Origin: Eledone cirrhosa | Taxonomy: Eukaryota | Direction of reading: 5' to 3' | DNA: 64,000 nt | Assembly (NCBI GenBank): GCA_964016885.1 | Contig: OZ024742.1 | Coordinates: forward strand, 261,206,001-261,270,000 | Shown: piece after piece, positions 28,961 to 55,869 of the stretch | Layout: the number at the start of each line of letters is the position of its first letter | Position numbering within the stretch: the first letter of the stretch is position 1 | The notes under the pieces: model-generated | Told to the model about the DNA's origin: nothing | The model's database searches: none | The model's input: only the letters and a program-made list of their open reading frames with translations | Translations under genes and position numbers: made by a program

Positions 28961-29084
28961 TTTACTTGCAAACGAATCAAATATTATTATTATTAGATTT
29001 AAAACTCGGGAATGCATTTACGTATAAGCTATGTTAGAGCGAAAACTAATTTTGTTTATATATGTGCGTATGTATGTATGTATG

Positions 29085-30647: not shown

Positions 30648-30897
30648 GGCACGTAGCTGAGTGGTTAGAGAATTGGATTCGCAATCGTGAGGTTGTGAAC
30701 TCGATTCCTGGATCGGGCGATGCGTTATATCCTTGGGCAAGACAATTTATTTCACGTTCCTTCTGCCTGAAATTGCGACCGACAGATAGTATTAGCAATT
30801 GGAAAGACCGATGGAAACATTGTTTCCTCGGTCCGATTTGACGAGCACCATCCCACTCGTTGAGGGAATGAGGTCTGGGATCTTGTTGACCGACTGT
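30648..30897 (+). mobile_element. tRNA-derived SINE family B
   Basis: A-box TAGCTGAGTGG and B-box-like ACTCGATTCC. Related copies at 42263-42481(-), 12570-12897(-) and 15674-15786(+). Confidence 0.75.
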
Positions 30898-30932
<35 letters not shown>

Positions 30933-31005
30933 AAAAGGTAAAAAGAAACAACACAGTATATGGTAGGAATGTATTAGTTTAACGCTTGAAATAGCAGGAA
31001 GAGTG

Positions 31006-31041
31006 TCTTAACGTTTTGGACGCTAGTCCTTCATCAGAAGA
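31006..31041 (-). ncRNA. Minimal degenerate hammerhead motif (same family as 51.8 kb)
   Basis: TCTT-CTGATGA-aGGActagcgTCC-AAAACGTTAAGA (GAAA>AAAA). Shares the downstream AAGCGT.AA.CTAATA. Confidence 0.55.
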
Positions 31042-31328
31042 AAGAATAAGAAATTAGAATGATTGAAGGGACAGGGTGGGTGGAATTTGAAAAATGTTTT
31101 TAGGGAAAAATAACAGGTTGATTCATGTTGCCATCACTTGAAAAACTCATATATATATGTGTGTACGTGTATATATGTCTATATATGTGTGTATATGTAT
31201 ATATATATATATATAAGTTGAAAAAAATGAAAACGAAATTTCATTTCTCACTCTTAGTATGGCACTTACTTAAATGTAAGTATGTATGTATACGTACATA
31301 CATATATGTATACAGACGTACAGTAGCA

Positions 31329-31368
<40 letters not shown>

Positions 31369-31538
31369 TATACACATATGCATACAGGTACACATACATA
31401 TATGCACGCATCAGTTTAGCCGACGTTTATTATAACGCCTGCTTTGTTCGTTTGTTTGTCAACAAATCGAACAGCCTGAATTTATGCCATACGGTGTTAA
31501 GGCAACCACGTCACCTTTTTGTTCAACACTGACGCAGG

Positions 31539-31583
31539 AACGATGTACTAGTTTCAAGCTTGTTAGCTATCATCAGCACCGTT
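31539..31583 (-). ncRNA. Type I hammerhead ribozyme motif, intact core
   Basis: AACGGTG-CTGATGA-tAGCTaacaAGCTt-GAA-ACTAGT-A-CATCGTT. Stem I of 7 bp, palindromic stem III, GUA site. Confidence 0.85.
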
Positions 31584-31747
31584 TACCCATCTGCCAGATA
31601 GTTGAACGTTCGAACTTTTTTCAACTTATCGTTTTCGGTATGCCTGACCGATTTAACTCACTCAATATGCAAATTAGGCTGCTCAGCCGTTAATTTTCAT
31701 AAGGAAAGTATATACTTTCGAACGTTCAACTATCTGGCAGATGGGTA

Positions 31748-31792
31748 AACGGTGCTGATGATAGCTAACAAGCTTGCAACTAGTACATCGTT
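31748..31792 (+). ncRNA. Type I hammerhead copy with GAAA>GCAA core mutation
   Basis: Mirror of 31539-31583, with C at 31777. Confidence 0.75.
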
Positions 31793-31951
31793 CCTGTGTC
31801 AGTGTTGAACAAAAAGGTGACGTGGTTGCCTTAACACCGTATGGCATAAATTCAGGTTGTTCGATTTGTTGACAAACAAACGAACAAAGCAGGCGTTATA
31901 ATAAACGTCGGCTAAACTGATGCGTGCATATATGTATGTGTACCTGTATGC

Positions 31952-32000
<49 letters not shown>

Positions 32001-32048
32001 TGCTACTGTACGTCTGTATACATATATGTATGTACGTATACATACATA

Positions 32049-32103
<55 letters not shown>

Positions 32104-32479: not shown

Positions 32480-33573
32480 TGTAGTAGATGTTCAGAGTAA
32501 GTGTGTTATATTCTGATTTCTATGTTGTCTATATTACCACCATGTCTTTGTCTGGCGTATTCATATAGTATCGAACCATCTTTTTGTCCTTTTAGCGCCC
32601 CCCAATGTTGGTCTATTCCCTCTCATATGCTCCGAGCTGTCTTACTTATGTATGTCGTTGTCATATTTCTGCAAGTATCCTCTGCGCATCTTATGCTATC
32701 GACTACATTTCTAGTTTTGCAATTCATTTATGGATTTATTCTACATATAACACATTTCTTATTAGTACAGTGGGTTTTCTTAAAGGGGTAAGTTTTGCTG
32801 ATCAGGGATTTTATGTTTATGGTAGTTCCTGGCTTTTCTACTACTTTAATCTTTAAATGGGTCTTTCTAAATTGGTTAGTTAATTCACCTCCAAGGGTTG
32901 CATCCACGAACATGACACTCTGGTATCTCTGGTTATCGTACCACGAAGTGGCTCTCTCTATCTTATGTTTAGTCCTATCTATGCTAATCCATGATTTGCT
33001 CCTGTACAATGGGCAAATACTTTTTATGAGGGTCTTATATTTCTTCGTGGCTCCTTTGTACACCCTGATTCTGTCTCTTTGGTTGTAACAGGAGAACTGC
33101 ATGCGATTGATGAAGTGTATGTGTCTTTCTAGTTCAGTTGGATCACACATGCAGGACACATTCTTCACCACTCTTACCAAGTCTGAGATCAGAATATTAA
33201 ATTTAGCACTATTGGACATCGCTGAGTTTTTGTGTATAAGGTATTTGGAAGTCATGGGTTTAGCATAATGGGAGTGGAGAATTTTGGTTTTCTCGTTTAT
33301 AGTGTTTAACCAGAGTTCAGTGTTTAATACTGGTAGTCTATTGTTAGGTTGTTTGGAAGGGTAGTCGATAGTTACTGTTATGCTCTGGTGTATGGAGATA
33401 GCTATCTGTTGGATGTTCTCCATTGTGTTAGTTTCTAATTCGGGTTTATTGGTACTCTCTTGTGGGGTTGTTTTTATTACAATATTACAATATCTACTTA
33501 AATGACGAGGGCTATGGAGTTCTCTTCTAGGAGTTCTCTGAGTCTCTTTTCCCACCATACCATACGATTTCAT
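32480..33573 (-). mobile_element. Penelope-like element remnant (RT thumb, linker and decayed GIY-YIG)
   Basis: TIDYPS..NNRLPVL, HYAKPMTSK..IHKNSAM, KVVEKPG, C..C..C, then CKTRNVV.SI.C...C.....YI.KTARS with stops. Confidence 0.8.
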
Positions 33574-33669
33574 ATAAAAAAACCTTGAAAAACAAATAAA
33601 TATATATATATATGTGTGTGTGTATTTACCAACCTACCTATCCATCCATCTATCTATTTATCTATCTTC

Positions 33670-43336: not shown

Positions 43337-43726
43337 CTGATAATATATTGATATTTCGTTATTTATGATCTACTACACGAATTCAGTAAACATTATACTT
43401 CGTGTAATTGTATACGAGGCGTACACATAGCTGTGTGGTTAAGGGGTTCACATAGTAATGACGTATTTCAGGTTAAGTCACACTGCGTAAAACCTTGGAC
43501 AAGTGTCTTCTACTATAGCCTCGGGTTGATCAATGCCTAGTGAGGGAAATTTGGTTGACATACACTGCCGTGTATATATATATATATATATATGTAGAAG
43601 TTCTATTTAAATTGTTGGGATACAACAAGCAAATATTTTTATAACTGATATAAAGCACTCAACAAATTATTGGAGTAAAAATACGATATATTAACAAATG
43701 GAAACTATATTTATAAAACCATATTT

Positions 43727-43789
43727 ATTTCATTATACATATTTCAAGGACACCAAGTTAAATTATGGTGTGCTTTCATCAGATAAAAT
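43727..43789 (-). ncRNA. Type I hammerhead ribozyme motif (mirror copy)
   Basis: Reverse complement of 43939-44001. Stem II acacca/tggtgt is fully paired. Confidence 0.75.
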
Positions 43790-43938
43790 ATAATATAGAT
43801 CAGTTTTATAAATAAATATTGACATACCCTTAAAGAATGCGACTATTTCTGTTGGAAGCTATCCGGGAGCTTCCAACAGTAATGGTTGCATTCTTTAAGG
43901 GTATGTCAATATTTATTTATAAAACTGATCTATATTAT

Positions 43939-44001
43939 ATTTTATCTGATGAAAGCACATCATAATTTAACTTGGTGTCCTTGAAATATGTATAATGAAA
44001 T
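43939..44001 (+). ncRNA. Type I hammerhead ribozyme motif
   Basis: ATTTTAT-CTGATGA-aag.acatca..tggtgt.ctt-GAA-ATATGTAT-A-ATGAAAT. AUA site after 43994. Confidence 0.75.
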
Positions 44002-44043
44002 AAATATGGTTTTATAAATATAGTTTCCATTTGTTAATATATC

Positions 44044-44081
<38 letters not shown>

Positions 44082-44299: not shown

Positions 44300-45210
44300 A
44301 AAAAGGATAGGTTACCCTTTAAAGCCGACCTAATCAACCTAATTAAAAAAATAAAATTAATAAAAACACAAATAAGTGCCAACAAAATCTCAAGGAACCT
44401 ATCGTACGGGCCGATAAAGTCAGGAAGACCTACAAATTAGATAAACTATCGTATGATTCACTATTGTTTGTAACATCACGGATACCCGCAAAAAACACAA
44501 CCACAGTGTGTACAACGATGAAGCAAGAACGCTCACTACACAACTGGGAATAGCAGACAGAGTTGAGCAGCTCACCCTACGAAAACCTTATCTCCTGTTG
44601 ATGGACCAAAATGTCGTCTAATCAATGAAGAGTGAAATGGGTAAAGTCAGCAAACAAATTCTCGACAATATAAACACCACAACCAGGAGATCTACAAATC
44701 TCAAGCAATGGAACAGTAACTGTGCTACTATAAAATGGTTGAATGACATAGACGACAAACATAACTGCAAGTTCATATAATTTGACATTCCTCGCGAGCT
44801 ACTCCTCCAGTCTCTGGAGTTCGAAAAAAACAAAACAACTACACTACCATAATAGACAACGACGTACAAATTATATTAAATGCGAGGAAGTCATTATTGG
44901 ACCACGATGTCTCTTTCACTCTGATGAACTCTTTGACGTCGCAATGGAGTGGGGTGACAGACCTTGTCGGGGTATACCTGATATAAACCCTGAAGAACAA
45001 GCTCCTAGGCGTTGAACTAGGGCTATACAGAGACGATGGACTCGGCATAGCATAGCCTACATCTGTAACGGGAACGATATGGATAAGCTGAGAAACACCA
45101 TAATTGGCGCGGTGAGACAACTAAACCAAAGATTCACTATTATAACCAACTTAAAAGTTGCAGATTTCCTGAATATAACCCTGGATCTAAACACGGGACA
45201 AAACCGTCTC
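44300..45210 (+). mobile_element. Penelope-like element RT remnant (LYRDDGL type)
   Basis: KQWNS....IKWL, FI*FDI, FDVAM, GLYRDDGLG, TNLKVADFLNITLDL. Frameshifted. Confidence 0.75.
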
Positions 45211-48113: not shown

Positions 48114-48262
48114 CATATCAAGGGAATTTTACCCGCCCTAGATATATATATATACATACATATTAGCAGATTGGCTGCTAATATGCAAATCAGGCCGATC
48201 AGTCACTGTGTATTTTTGAAAATAGCATTTCACTAGCTCTGACAGTTTGGCAGGTGAACAGT

Positions 48263-48312
48263 GAGCTGTACTGATGAAGGGTGATACCCAGAAACATTAG
48301 TGTCTGCAGTTC
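48263..48312 (+). ncRNA. Type I hammerhead ribozyme motif, canonical GUC
   Basis: GAGCTGTA-CTGATGA-aGGGTgatACCCa-GAA-ACAttagTGT-C-TGCAGTTC. Predicted cleavage after 48304. Confidence 0.88.
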
Positions 48313-48478
48313 TGTTCGCATGCCAACACAAGAGCAAGAATGAAGTGTTAATTCTACTGACATGGCTATAAAATTGAGGCTTGTTTGCATAATTGCAAAC
48401 GAATCGAATGTTATTAATATTCGAAAAACTCAGATTACATTTATTGTATTCAGCCATGTTGAGCGAAATTTTCTTTTT

Positions 48479-48572
<94 letters not shown>

Positions 48573-49209
48573 AGATAGATATATAGATATCTTGATAGAT
48601 AGATAGATAGATAGATAGATAGGCGCACCACAGATACATACTTAGCAGACACTAGAAGAATCGATTATTTAGTTTTGAACCTGTATTACGAGTAAAAGAG
48701 AAAAGAAAAGTTTTAACGATTTACGTTGAAATGCCATCTGTCATATGCAAAGCTGTAGTAACGTAGTTATAAAAAGCTGCAGTAATTGGGGGATGGTCTA
48801 TTAGCATTCTATAGGATGACTGTAGAGGTTTCGTTGGTGATGGCCTACAGAAACAGTAAATATAATTCGACAATTCCACTGATTCTTCTTAGATAAATCG
48901 CATTTAAAATGTAAATCGTGTTTAAGACGACAGTACGAAAACGTAGGTACGCTTGTCAATGGTTTCGGAGTATAAGATTAAAAGATGGTAGCATATTTTA
49001 TGAGTTGAATGAGTAGATGTAAACATGTTAGTCTTTAATATAAGATTGCTTTCGAGAGGTAACAATATTGGCATCTGTTCAGAATAGTGAGTAGTGATTA
49101 AACGATAGTTCTGACATGAATGATTTCGATGAGTCTTTTCAATGGAACAAAAGAAAATAGATCCAAGTAGCCATAATTTGCTTTGAATACGAGTGAGTAC
49201 CTAAAAGAG

Positions 49210-49292
<83 letters not shown>

Positions 49293-49368
49293 CGAAGGAA
49301 ATGTGGTAAGGAACCAGGTGGACCATAACGCACCAAAGTACTCAATACTTAGGGTAGTAGAGTGGGTA

Positions 49369-49500
49369 ATAGGAACGAGTAGGACCCCGACGGCTGAGCT
49401 CAAGCCGTTTCGACGGCTAATTCTGGACTAAATGATTTTAGTCCAGAATTAGCCGTCGAAACGGCTTAAGCTCAGCCATCGGGGTCCTACTCGTTCCTAT
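49369..49500. repeat. Foldback palindrome, 64-bp arms and 4-nt loop
   Basis: Centre GGACTAAA-tgat-TTTAGTCC, 2 mismatches, (TA)n flanks. Confidence 0.93.
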
Positions 49501-51127: not shown

Positions 51128-51776
51128 CAAAAATATAGATTTTTCGTAAATAATTGCTTCTTAGATAATTCTGTTTATATTTCTAGACATTTATACATGC
51201 ACACACACGCACACACACACACGCACACACGCGCACACACGCACAAACACACACGCACACACACACTGTGGGTGCCACTGTGGCAACTGTTTATTTTGAT
51301 TTTGTTTTATTTATTCTGTAGAGGAGACAGAGGAGAATAATCATTGAGAAAGTTACAGAATGTGTGACGAAGGAGGTTTTACAATTAAATAACCATCTGG
51401 TTATTGAACTAACTGAGAATGGATTAGTTACCTGACTGATAATGAAAATCAAAGTAAAACTAAAATGATGTGTATTTTTATTGACAGCATGAGCCTCCCA
51501 AAGTTTAACAATATCTTTTTCAACACACGATTTCACATCAAGAATTTTGCAAAACAAATACAAAAACGAAATACGTACACCCTCACCCCATTCTCCCCTT
51601 CAACCCACCCACCCACTACCACACCGATGTCACCCCCACACCACCTGGGACCTATACCCCCTATCCCATTTATTTTTATTTTTATCATTATTTTTATTTT
51701 CTATTTTTTACTTTCTAACTTCCCCTCTTACACCACCCTGCTCCTTCTTAGAGTTCCTGTTCTGCCCCTATCTGAA

Positions 51777-51814
51777 CTTTCCTGATGAAGGACTTCTATC
51801 CGAAACGGTGAAAG
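51777..51814 (+). ncRNA. Minimal, probably degenerate hammerhead motif
   Basis: CTTTC-CTGATGA-aGGActtctaTCC-GAAACGGT-GAAAG. The cleavage triplet is imperfect. Confidence 0.55.
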
Positions 51815-51981
51815 CTCCTCCACTCTTCCACAAAGCGTGAACCTAATATAACTGTGTATAATTGTCTCCAGTGTTTTGCTCGTTCATTTTCAACTATATA
51901 TATATATATATATTTATTAAAATAACAGATTAAAGTTTAAGCAAAGAATCGCTGCTTTCACCCTTAACGGGATCTTATATA

Positions 51982-54002: not shown

Positions 54003-54764
54003 ATATATATATATATATATTTAAGAGTTAAACAAGATTCAATGAATACATCAAAGAATGAAGGAGTTTTACAATAGATTGGAAGCACTCTACAAGAAAT
54101 ATTTTCCAGAGTTATTAATATTAATTCCAAATATTAACAAAATAGATATTCTTGTGATCAAGTATATCTATATATAGTTTGTACAAATATCTTTATCTAG
54201 TGTAATAACATAATCGTAGTTGCATTTATATAAAACTACTAACAATGATTATAATTATTATTCTTTATTAAATGTATACCGTTTCATTAATACCTAGTAT
54301 ATCTATATATAGTTTGTACAAATATCTTTATCTAGTGTATTAACATAATCGTAGTTACATTTATATAAATAATTTAAACACTCAAATGACATTATTATAA
54401 GTGTTTGGTTTTCCCTGGAAGGTCGAACTTATTTAATCATTTACTTAAATACAATATATGAACAAATAATAAACTATAGTCTTGGTATATTATGATCAAT
54501 ACACACATATATATAGCTGAAAACTCTGACTTCTTTAAGTTTAATTATAAGACCTGTTAATACTTTAGGCACTCAAACTATTTAACAATAAACGGAAAAA
54601 ATGAAACAAAATTTCATTTCTCACTCTTAGTACGGCTGTTACTTAATTATAAGTATGTATACAGACGTACAGTAGTATATATATATATATATATATATAC
54701 ATACATACATGCACACATAGATATATGTACGTATGGATTCACCGAGCATTATAATAAATGTTCG

Positions 54765-54950
54765 CGGTGGATTGGTAGTATCGGTAGAGGGTCGGACGCC
54801 ATGCTTTCCAGCATAGTTACGTCCCTTTACGATCTGAGTTCAAATCCCGCCGAGGTTGACTTTGCCTTTCATCCTTACGGGGTCGATAAAATAAAAGTAC
54901 CAGTAATGCATTGGGTAATTTCTGGCCTTGTGCCTAAAGTAGAAACAATT
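54765..54950 (+). mobile_element. SINE family A
   Basis: 17-bp TSD ATTATAATAAATGTTCG at 54748 and 54948. Confidence 0.9.
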
Positions 54951-55760
54951 ATAATAAATGTTCGGTGAATCCATACGTACATATATATATGTGTGCATGT
55001 ATGTATATATATATATATATACATACTACTGTACGTCTGTATACATATATGTATGTACGTATACATACTTATATTTAACAATAAATGATTTAATAGTTAT
55101 AACTGTAAATATCTCATGAATTATATTATAGAAACTGTTGTCAATATTATAAGTAATTTTGGTAAAGATTACCTTTTGTGGGGATATCGAACATTATATG
55201 TATATTTTCTTTCTTTCGCGGGTCTCGTAAATCCTTTAAATTTGTCTTCATAAAATTTGAATTTTAGAAATTTAACATAATTATATTATAATATTAATAC
55301 AAATACTCATCAATTTTAAAACCTAAAATTTGATTCTTTAACCTGAAATAACATAAATTTAATATTTTGAAAATTAACAGCCAACTTTATATGAATATGT
55401 GTATGTAGAAACTTGAGCATAAATTACTCCCACTTGTCTCTCTCTCTCTTTATTTCATCTTTCATTTGTCTTCTCAAGCTAAATACTAAATAAGTTATAA
55501 CATCAGCTACGTCTTCCTCTATGCTTTCCTCTCCCGCATATTTCTCTAGTAGTTTTTTTTTAATATTAAAAATTCTATAACTGTGACATTGATGCCATGT
55601 ATTTCTTAAAATATATTACTCACACTCTCTCTATTGATTGTATTACGTTTTCTCATGTTCTCAATATTAGGGTATAAATATTGAGTTTTCTCATAATTTA
55701 ATCACTACCTTGATTAAATCTTAACCATCTACCATGTCAGGGTATGTCATGTATCATTTT

Positions 55761-55825
55761 ATTTTATCTGATGAGGACGTACTGTTGAACTTAATTCAGT
55801 ACCTCTGAAATATGTATAATAAAAT
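55761..55825 (+). ncRNA. Type I hammerhead motif (relative of the 43.9 kb family)
   Basis: ATTTTAT-CTGATGA-gga.GTACTG..CAGTAC.tct-GAA-ATATGTAT-A-ATAAAAT. Confidence 0.78.
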
Positions 55826-55869
55826 ATAATTGATCACAAGAATATCTATTTTGTTAATATTTGGAATTA

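What the first reader, a model, noticed from the sequence alone, without database searches (positions are those of the whole stretch)
48160..48480. 320-bp solo ribozyme unit is a distant relative of the 31.7 kb arm, with an octamer motif exactly 88 nt before the core in both
AATATGCAAAT(T/C)AGGC...TCAG occurs in both (ATGCAAAT at 31667 and 48183), each 88 nt upstream of CTGATGA (31755 and 48271). Both also share TGGCAG(A/G)TG before the ribozyme and ATGGC.ATAAA.T.AGG.TTGTT after it. Stems I, II and III differ in sequence yet all still pair, which suggests selection on structure. ATGCAAAT is the established POU/Oct octamer. Inference: a conserved internal promoter plus ribozyme cassette.
Basis: partly seen in the sequence, partly recalled or inferred. 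Interest (0 to 1): 0.75.

Follow-up and report, generated by a model that had tools for sequence, protein, structure and literature searches.

The report
Ribozyme repeat with snRNA-type promoter
This is one damaged copy of a very abundant non-coding jumping repeat whose units place a hammerhead (self-cutting RNA) motif just behind sequence boxes that match the promoters of the animal's own splicing-RNA genes, so the repeat likely carries its own promoter and is likely copied by Penelope-type transposons; the 'exactly 88' spacing is a coincidence caused by a small deletion in this copy.

Summary
The motifs are there and the two units are distant relatives, but neither is 'solo'. Each belongs to a multi-thousand-copy family of non-coding type I hammerhead repeats (retrozymes); octamer-then-core occurs 29,483 times genome-wide against 1 control. 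'Exactly 88 nt' is chance: this family's spacing is 92-93 and the window copy lost 5 nt from its TATA-like box; other families use 88-100. What is conserved is the promoter block: TATGCAAATNAG, as at -76 to -78 of host U6, U6atac and MRP genes; a YCASY box 16 nt later, as at -55 to -58 of host U1/U2/U5/U12; and a TATA-like box 40-42 nt after the octamer. This predicts a start about 72 nt after the octamer, 15-20 nt before the core. Copies end at a T-run beside (TA)n, are often joined head-to-head, and are occasionally fused to Penelope-like elements. Transcription and cleavage are untested (no RNA run listed); polymerase II versus III is open. Newt satellite 2 is the published precedent. This scan already reported the same system from other loci of this genome.

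The parts
48175..48479 (+). Family A retrozyme copy, 5'-truncated (monomer positions 126-438 of 438), about 97% identical to the family majority
48159..48169 (-). Short inverted repeat of the unit's own 5' end (snap-back junction)
   Evidence: sequence
48182..48193 (+). TATGCAAATCAG box (octamer 48183-48190), same as box at -76 to -78 of host U6, U6atac, MRP genes
48199..48203 (+). TCAGT, matches box at -55 to -58 of host U1/U2/U5 genes (PSE-like)
48225..48229 (+). Remnant of the TATA-like box; 5 nt (TATAT) missing after 48227 relative to the family
48248..48256 (+). TGGCAGGTG block: predicted transcription start region (about 48250) and 5' strand of extended stem I
   Evidence: inference; fold
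48263..48312 (+). Type I hammerhead: stem I 48263-70/48305-12, core 48271-77, stem II 48278-90, GAAA 48291-94, self-complementary stem III 48294-48303, predicted cut after GUC at 48304
48362..48385 (+). Body block shared with family B
48469..48479 (+). Terminal T-run, the usual 3' end of insertions
48481..48549 (.). (TA)n target microsatellite
31616..32052 (+). Family B copy, right arm: octamer 31667, TCAGC 31683, GTATATAC 31708, core 31755 with GCAA mutation; ends at the short 3' end in (TA)n
31213..31614 (-). Family B copy, left arm, joined head-to-head; intact hammerhead (core 31576), no octamer; ends at the long 3' end (hairpin + T-run) in (TA)n

Best explanation
48175-48479 is a truncated copy, with a deleted TATA-like box, of a 438-bp non-coding hammerhead repeat (a non-LTR retrozyme) present thousands of times in this genome, whose units carry boxes matching the host's snRNA promoters and likely use them as a built-in promoter. 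Shown: repeat status, hammerhead pairing and covariation, promoter-box matches, (TA)n targets, head-to-head insertions, multi-unit arrays, two fusions to a Penelope-like element. Inferred mechanism: in an intact tandem array, transcription would start about 72 nt after the octamer, 15-20 nt before the core, and run through the next unit; hammerheads (probably as dimers, given the palindromic stem III) would cut out a monomer that carries the promoter in its 3' part; the monomer would be ligated to a circle; a Penelope-type RT/GIY-YIG enzyme would nick (TA)n, prime at the 3' hairpin/T-run from both ends of the break and copy round the circle, giving promoter-bearing monomers, arrays and head-to-head pairs. 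I favour Pol II snRNA-type transcription over Pol III about 55:45. The window copy itself is most likely dead as a promoter.
For: Copy number: 29,483 matches of box-N72-96-core vs 1 reversed control; 2,871 exact matches of a 23-nt family-A motif. Box at -76..-78 in 5 of 5 distinct host Pol III type-3 promoters examined (3 U6, U6atac with one mismatch, MRP) and in 0 of 13 Pol II promoters (U1, U2, U5, U12) at that place. YCASY exactly 16 nt after the octamer in 5 of 5 diverged families (A, B, C, D, F), not part of the search pattern, background 0.8% per position; host Pol II genes have TCAGT/CCAGT at -55..-58 in 12 of 12 and U12 has CCAGC at -58. Family A scores 13.4 bits on the host Pol II matrix, rank 1 of 790 positions. 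Hammerhead stems pair in A, B, B2, C, C2, D; covariation 0.295 vs 0.174, 0 of 500 shuffles, on an alignment with two rows out of register. Circular monomers fold at z -8.6 to -11.3. Of 90 3'-anchored family-A places, 60 end at T-run plus (TA)n, 21 run into another monomer, 9 other; 60 of 90 hold both orientations. 23 of 79 extend 5' of the predicted start and 9 exceed one monomer. A 14-unit head-to-head B array has both outer ends in (TA)n, and units are closer within arrays than between. No excess of 5' ends at the family-B cut site: 15 vs 20, 26, 29, 9 at control positions, as expected for circular or uncut templates. 2 of 119 family-A loci are fused at their 5' junction to a Penelope-like RT whose other half is not on the far side. 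Every monomer holds 2-4 runs of T4 or more, mostly in the promoter part, which Pol III would have to read through to copy the promoter.
Against: No transcription, start site, cleavage or circle was observed. Octamer-to-TATA is 40-42 nt against 45-47 in host Pol III genes, and host Pol II genes lack the octamer, so the block matches neither class in full. The Pol II matrix supports only family A (B -5.8, B2 -8.4, C -19.5, D 1.4, D2 3.3 bits). Two of seven other listed matches (E, G) lack YCASY and TATA. Families C, D, F were found with a pattern containing the box, so their box match is circular; only A and B are free of that. The host distal box near -260 is not visible in the printed A and B monomers (by eye). 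The lowest-energy fold of the window unit is not the active hammerhead. The two Penelope-like families examined have no such cassette in their terminal repeats, so the partner is not identified by homology. No pile-up of 5' ends at the predicted start.
Confidence: 0.68

Rival explanations
1. Same element, but the block is a U6-type Pol III promoter: Pol III would start just before the ribozyme and stop at the terminal T-run, giving a short linear RNA; rare read-through or host Pol II transcripts supply the promoter-bearing templates.
For: The box matches host U6, U6atac and MRP and no host Pol II snRNA gene examined; TATA-like box present; no T4 run from the predicted start to near the monomer end in A, B, B2; insertions end at the T-run.
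Against: Box-to-TATA spacing 4-5 nt shorter than host Pol III genes; T4-free stretch is not significant (p 0.13-0.25 per family) and family C has an internal T5; the Penelope-like elements examined also have fixed 3' ends in (TA)n, so the T-run end may be a priming site; no pile-up of 5' ends at the cut site or start.
Confidence: 0.3
2. The boxes are a relic or an RNA/DNA-level signal (for example an Oct-factor enhancer or part of the circle's fold) and the repeats are transcribed only by read-through from flanking DNA, as reviews propose for retrozymes.
For: PMC7761336 (passage) states retrozymes seem to lack promoters; geometry fits neither host class exactly; sequence upstream of the predicted start pairs with sequence after the ribozyme, so the region is also under RNA-structure constraint.
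Against: Three spaced boxes matching host snRNA promoters are kept across families that are otherwise barely alignable; family A triplicated the octamer+TCAG module.
Confidence: 0.2

Closest known systems
Metazoan non-LTR retrozymes (Cervera and de la Pena 2020, PMC7229834, passages and Discussion read; Li, Clavereau and Pollet, bioRxiv 10.64898/2026.07.22.740005, parts 1-3 of 5 read)
   Same: Non-coding 430-480 bp monomers, type I hammerhead, dispersed monomers plus tandem arrays, low GC, co-occurrence with Penelope-like elements
   Different: Units carry an snRNA-type promoter block, which PMC7761336 (passage) says retrozymes seem to lack; monomers slightly longer than the 170-400 nt reported; circles not shown here
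Newt satellite 2 (Coats, Zhang and Epstein 1994; paper not held; title and one sentence seen in PMC2220036; octamer+PSE detail is recalled)
   Same: Hammerhead tandem repeat with an internal snRNA-type promoter
   Different: Here an invertebrate (octopus-like, by inference), at least five families, U6-type box directly ahead of a U1-type box and a TATA-like box, and clear Penelope-type insertion footprints; promoter untested
Penelope-like element pseudo-LTRs with minimal hammerheads (PMC4209133 part 1 of 4; PMC8557442 passages; PMC11167929 parts 1-2 of 4)
   Same: Palindromic stem III, 5' truncation, inverted 5' partner, two alternative 3' ends, AT-rich/(TA)n targets
   Different: No ORF; no homology found to the terminal repeats of the two Penelope-like families examined
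Host snRNA promoters (U1/U2/U5/U12 Pol II; U6/U6atac/MRP Pol III type 3); general architecture in PMC1761439 (abstract, Introduction, passages)
   Same: Same boxes in the same order
   Different: Combines the Pol III-gene box with the Pol II-gene box; box-to-TATA 40-42 vs 45-47; distal box not seen

Membership tests
Non-LTR retrozyme | Type I hammerhead with intact core in the repeat unit | tested here: met
   (by hand-anchored pairing; no Rfam hit at gathering score)
Non-LTR retrozyme | Short (about 150-450 bp, up to ~970 in the 2026 survey) non-coding monomer occurring in tandem and as dispersed copies | tested here: met
   A 438, B 479, B2 430, C 466 bp; dimers and arrays
Non-LTR retrozyme | No LTR, PBS/PPT or protein-coding region | tested here: inconclusive
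   No coding frame other than microsatellite-driven ones; no LTR layout; PBS/PPT not searched for
Non-LTR retrozyme | Self-cleavage of the RNA | not testable with these tools
   needs in vitro assay; MFE fold is an inactive alternative
Non-LTR retrozyme | Accumulates as circular RNA | not testable with these tools
   no RNA holder listed; indirect only
Penelope-like insertion pathway | 5' truncation, inverted 5' partner, alternative 3' ends, microsatellite target | tested here: met
Penelope-like element (autonomous) | RT + GIY-YIG ORF between pseudo-LTRs | tested here: not met
   no ORF in the unit; autonomous elements exist elsewhere (923-aa ORF)
Host Pol III type-3 promoter | TATG(C/G)(A/T)AATNAG box | tested here: met
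Host Pol III type-3 promoter | TATA box 45-47 nt after the box | tested here: not met
   40-42 nt in six family representatives; deleted in the window copy
Host Pol III type-3 promoter | First T4+ run marks the 3' end | tested here: inconclusive
   true for A, B, B2, not C; p 0.13-0.25
Host Pol II snRNA promoter | YCAGY box 25-27 nt before a TATA-like element | tested here: inconclusive
   geometry met in 5 of 5 families; matrix score high only in A
Host snRNA promoter (either class) | Transcription start at the predicted distance | not testable with these tools
   no RNA reads

The most novel reading that the evidence does not exclude
These retrozymes are self-transcribing circles: each carries, inside the circle, a hybrid snRNA promoter (U6-type octamer box fused to a U1-type proximal box) that is an external promoter on DNA and survives retrotransposition only because ribozyme cutting and circularisation move it behind the start site; with newt satellite 2 this would be a design shared across bilaterians and overlooked in current retrozyme models.
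Probability: 0.4. Interest if true: 0.7.

Novelty: new variant of a known kind. Interest (0 to 1): 0.5.

Why it matters
How animal retrozymes are transcribed, and what the hammerhead is for, are open; a 2020 review says they seem to have no promoter. Here the promoter candidate, its predicted start and the polymerase question are all directly testable, in tens of thousands of copies. It also offers a reason for the ribozyme: cut-and-circularise lets a retroelement keep an upstream promoter. The newt precedent lowers the surprise, and this particular copy is a damaged one.

Tried and rejected
Rfam scan of the window: no hit. Expression: no RNA holder listed; contigs of two runs of unrecorded kind laid on the unit only re-showed the family's variants; no conclusion drawn. 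Pile-up of 5' ends at the cut site: 3 of 79 family-A copies start at the first base after the cut, but all three junctions use a TGC/TGCA microhomology, and the genome-wide family-B test showed no excess (15 vs 20, 26, 29, 9), so rejected. Pile-up at the predicted start: none in family A; not tested in B. T-run as Pol III terminator: not significant. Autonomous partner by homology: two Penelope-like families (30 and 20 loci) have no octamer cassette in their terminal repeats; other clades (Naiad, Hydra, Poseidon) not searched. A first 5'-end map used a diverged monomer and was redone. MAFFT put families A and F out of register, so understates pairing; one search is hand-anchored. The Coats 1994 paper could not be read, nor the PMC7229834 supplement, which holds mussel, coral and axolotl retrozyme sequences that could show whether the boxes occur there; bioRxiv supplements were closed. 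Literature searches for this promoter in retrozymes: 'retrozyme+promoter+octamer' 0 papers, 'octopus+hammerhead ribozyme' nothing relevant, only the newt citation; the library lacks most subscription papers.

Full report
Setting. The window lies in a 3.0-Gb, microsatellite-rich animal genome, octopus-like by my inference; an NPL4 exon lies at about 13 kb. The finding is about 29 kb further on, between (TA)n tracts.

Observation. The coordinates are right: ATGCAAAT at 31667 and 48183, CTGATGA at 31755 and 48271. The two units align at score 60 against 25.5 +/- 3.9 for 1000 shuffles, none as high, and their bodies beyond the ribozyme are homologous as well (0 of 300 shuffles). Both fold as type I hammerheads with 7-8 bp stem I, 4 bp stem II over a mismatch, and a self-complementary stem III. 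The plus-strand 31755 copy has GCAA in place of GAAA; the intact one is on the minus arm at 31576. Rfam does not detect them at gathering score.

Neither unit is solo. The 48160 unit (family A) has 2,295 first-look candidates, the best 40 at 94-100% identity, and a 23-nt motif of it matches exactly 2,871 times. The 31.7-kb unit (family B) has 1,106 candidates at about 99%, many in arrays of about 479-bp period. The pattern box-N72-96-core matches 29,483 times against 1 for the reversed control. Its first 100 hits give further families C, D, D2 and old copies E, F, G. The full A monomer is 438 bp with three 33-bp repeats of octamer+TCAG; the window copy is positions 126-438.

The 88 is an accident. 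Of 35 best-hit A cores 28 had a recognisable octamer: 25 at 93 nt, 1 at 92, 1 at 86, and only the window copy at 88; of 49 cores in a sample anchored at the 3' end 22 had one, 16 at 92-93 and none at 88; B is 88 in 43 of 51 (8 without a match). The window copy lacks TATAT from its TATA-like box. C, D and D2 use 99-100.

What the octamer is. I pulled the host's snRNA genes. Five of five distinct Pol III type-3 promoters examined (three U6 types, U6atac, MRP) have TATG(C/G)(A/T)AATNAG at -76 to -78 and a TATA box at -31; lower-scoring U6atac hits were promoterless retrocopies and a SINE-interrupted U6 variant was set aside. Twelve of twelve Pol II promoters (U1, U2, U5) have TCAGT or CCAGT at -55 to -58 with a TATA-like element near -30 and no octamer there; U12 has CCAGC at -58. 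The repeats have the Pol III-gene box, then YCASY exactly 16 nt after the octamer in 5 of 5 diverged families (not part of the search pattern; 0.8% per position in the window), then a TATA-like box 40-42 nt after the octamer. E and G lack the last two. The fit is incomplete: box-to-TATA is 4-5 nt short of the host Pol III genes, and a Pol II matrix scores A well (13.4 bits, rank 1 of 790; window copy 7.6) but not B, B2, C (negative) and D weakly. The box match of C, D, F is circular; that of A and B is not.

How copies arise. I fetched 90 of the first 100 listed places of the 3' motif (a few pairs belong to one insertion). Sixty end at the T-run followed by (TA)n, 21 continue into another monomer, 9 are other; 60 of 90 hold the element in both orientations. 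Of 79 not interrupted by a SINE, 23 reach 5' of the predicted start and 9 exceed one monomer. The 31.2-32.05 kb locus is two B copies joined 5'-to-5', one ending at a long and one at a short 3' end, each in (TA)n; a 14-unit array on C1 has the same plan, and units are more alike within arrays than between them (unequal crossing-over could also do that). These are the Penelope-like footprints described in PMC8557442 (passages) and match the two-strand, two-site priming shown for a lizard element in PMC11167929 (parts 1-2). Two Penelope-like families here also end in (TA)n; one has a 923-aa RT+GIY-YIG frame, the other a minimal hammerhead in its terminal repeat; neither has the octamer cassette. 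Two of 119 A loci are fused at the 5' junction to the second family with the missing half absent from the far side, and one D2 unit is fused to the first. This points to, but does not name, the partner.

Template. Because copies carry sequence upstream of the predicted start, the template must be a read-through multimer or a circle. 5' ends do not pile up at the cut site in B (15 against 20, 26, 29 and 9 at neighbouring positions); the three A copies that start there share a microhomology. Circular monomers fold far better than shuffles (z -8.6 to -11.3, 60 shuffles each), and the lowest-energy fold blocks the core, which fits dimer-dependent cleavage (PMC4209133 part 1) but is also evidence against easy monomer cleavage. 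Each monomer has 2-4 runs of T4 or more that Pol III would have to pass to copy the promoter, while the T-free stretch after the start is not significant (p 0.13-0.25). Hence a slight preference for Pol II.

Comparison. The element meets the sequence-level definition of a non-LTR retrozyme (PMC7229834; bioRxiv 10.64898/2026.07.22.740005); cleavage and circles are untested. PMC7761336 says such elements seem to lack promoters, but newt satellite 2 has an snRNA-type Pol II promoter (Coats 1994, cited in PMC2220036; not readable; the octamer+PSE detail is my recall). Searches found no paper on this promoter in an invertebrate retrozyme, within a library that lacks most subscription papers and without the PMC7229834 supplement. 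Earlier notes of this scan describe the same system at other loci of this genome; I had reached the reading before looking and they are not independent evidence.

Verdict. A real, known kind of element with a likely built-in snRNA-type promoter; the particular copy is damaged and its 88-nt spacing meaningless. New variant of a known kind; interest 0.5.

Noticed in passing
window 43676-44052 and 55700-55860: Another hammerhead-like repeat family (long stem II, GAAATATGTAT) as a head-to-head palindrome (cores 43782 minus, 43946 plus) and a relative at 55768; no octamer cassette seen in the printed flanks.
   Followed up: partly
window 30895-31147 (minus) and 51770-51830: Minimal-hammerhead terminal repeat fragments; the first is the 3' pseudo-LTR of a Penelope-like family.
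   Followed up: partly
window 54584-55078; 28963-29044: Head-to-head B2 fragments without promoter or core, and an old family-A 3' remnant.
   Followed up: partly
L161, L167, L180, L188, L191, L196, L212, L221, L228, L229, L185: A tRNA-like SINE has inserted at the same TTATTATTAATATT site of family A in 11 of 90 sampled places: site-specific nesting.
   Followed up: partly
L137 (and L134, L135): A U6atac retrocopy is joined head-to-head to an inverted family-A copy; other U6atac retrocopies sit in (TA)n. The same enzyme may retropose U6atac.
   Followed up: no
L061-L102, L285 upstream, about -250 to -270: A shared distal box TTAYCTCCCTT in host U1, U2, U6 and U12 genes, apparently in place of an octamer enhancer.
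   Followed up: no
window 49098-49480; L147:3300-3500 region (minus): A short palindromic (TA)n-embedded element; in L147 a piece of it forms the left arm of a family-B insertion.
   Followed up: no
window 32728-33633 (minus) and about 44900-45050: Fragments resembling other Penelope-like RT clades (one reads GLYRDDGL); no Pfam hit for the first.
   Followed up: no
L301:490-520: Five telomere-like CCCTAA repeats next to the A/Penelope-like fusion.
   Followed up: no
window 59620 (minus): TATGCAAATGA not followed by a hammerhead core.
   Followed up: yes
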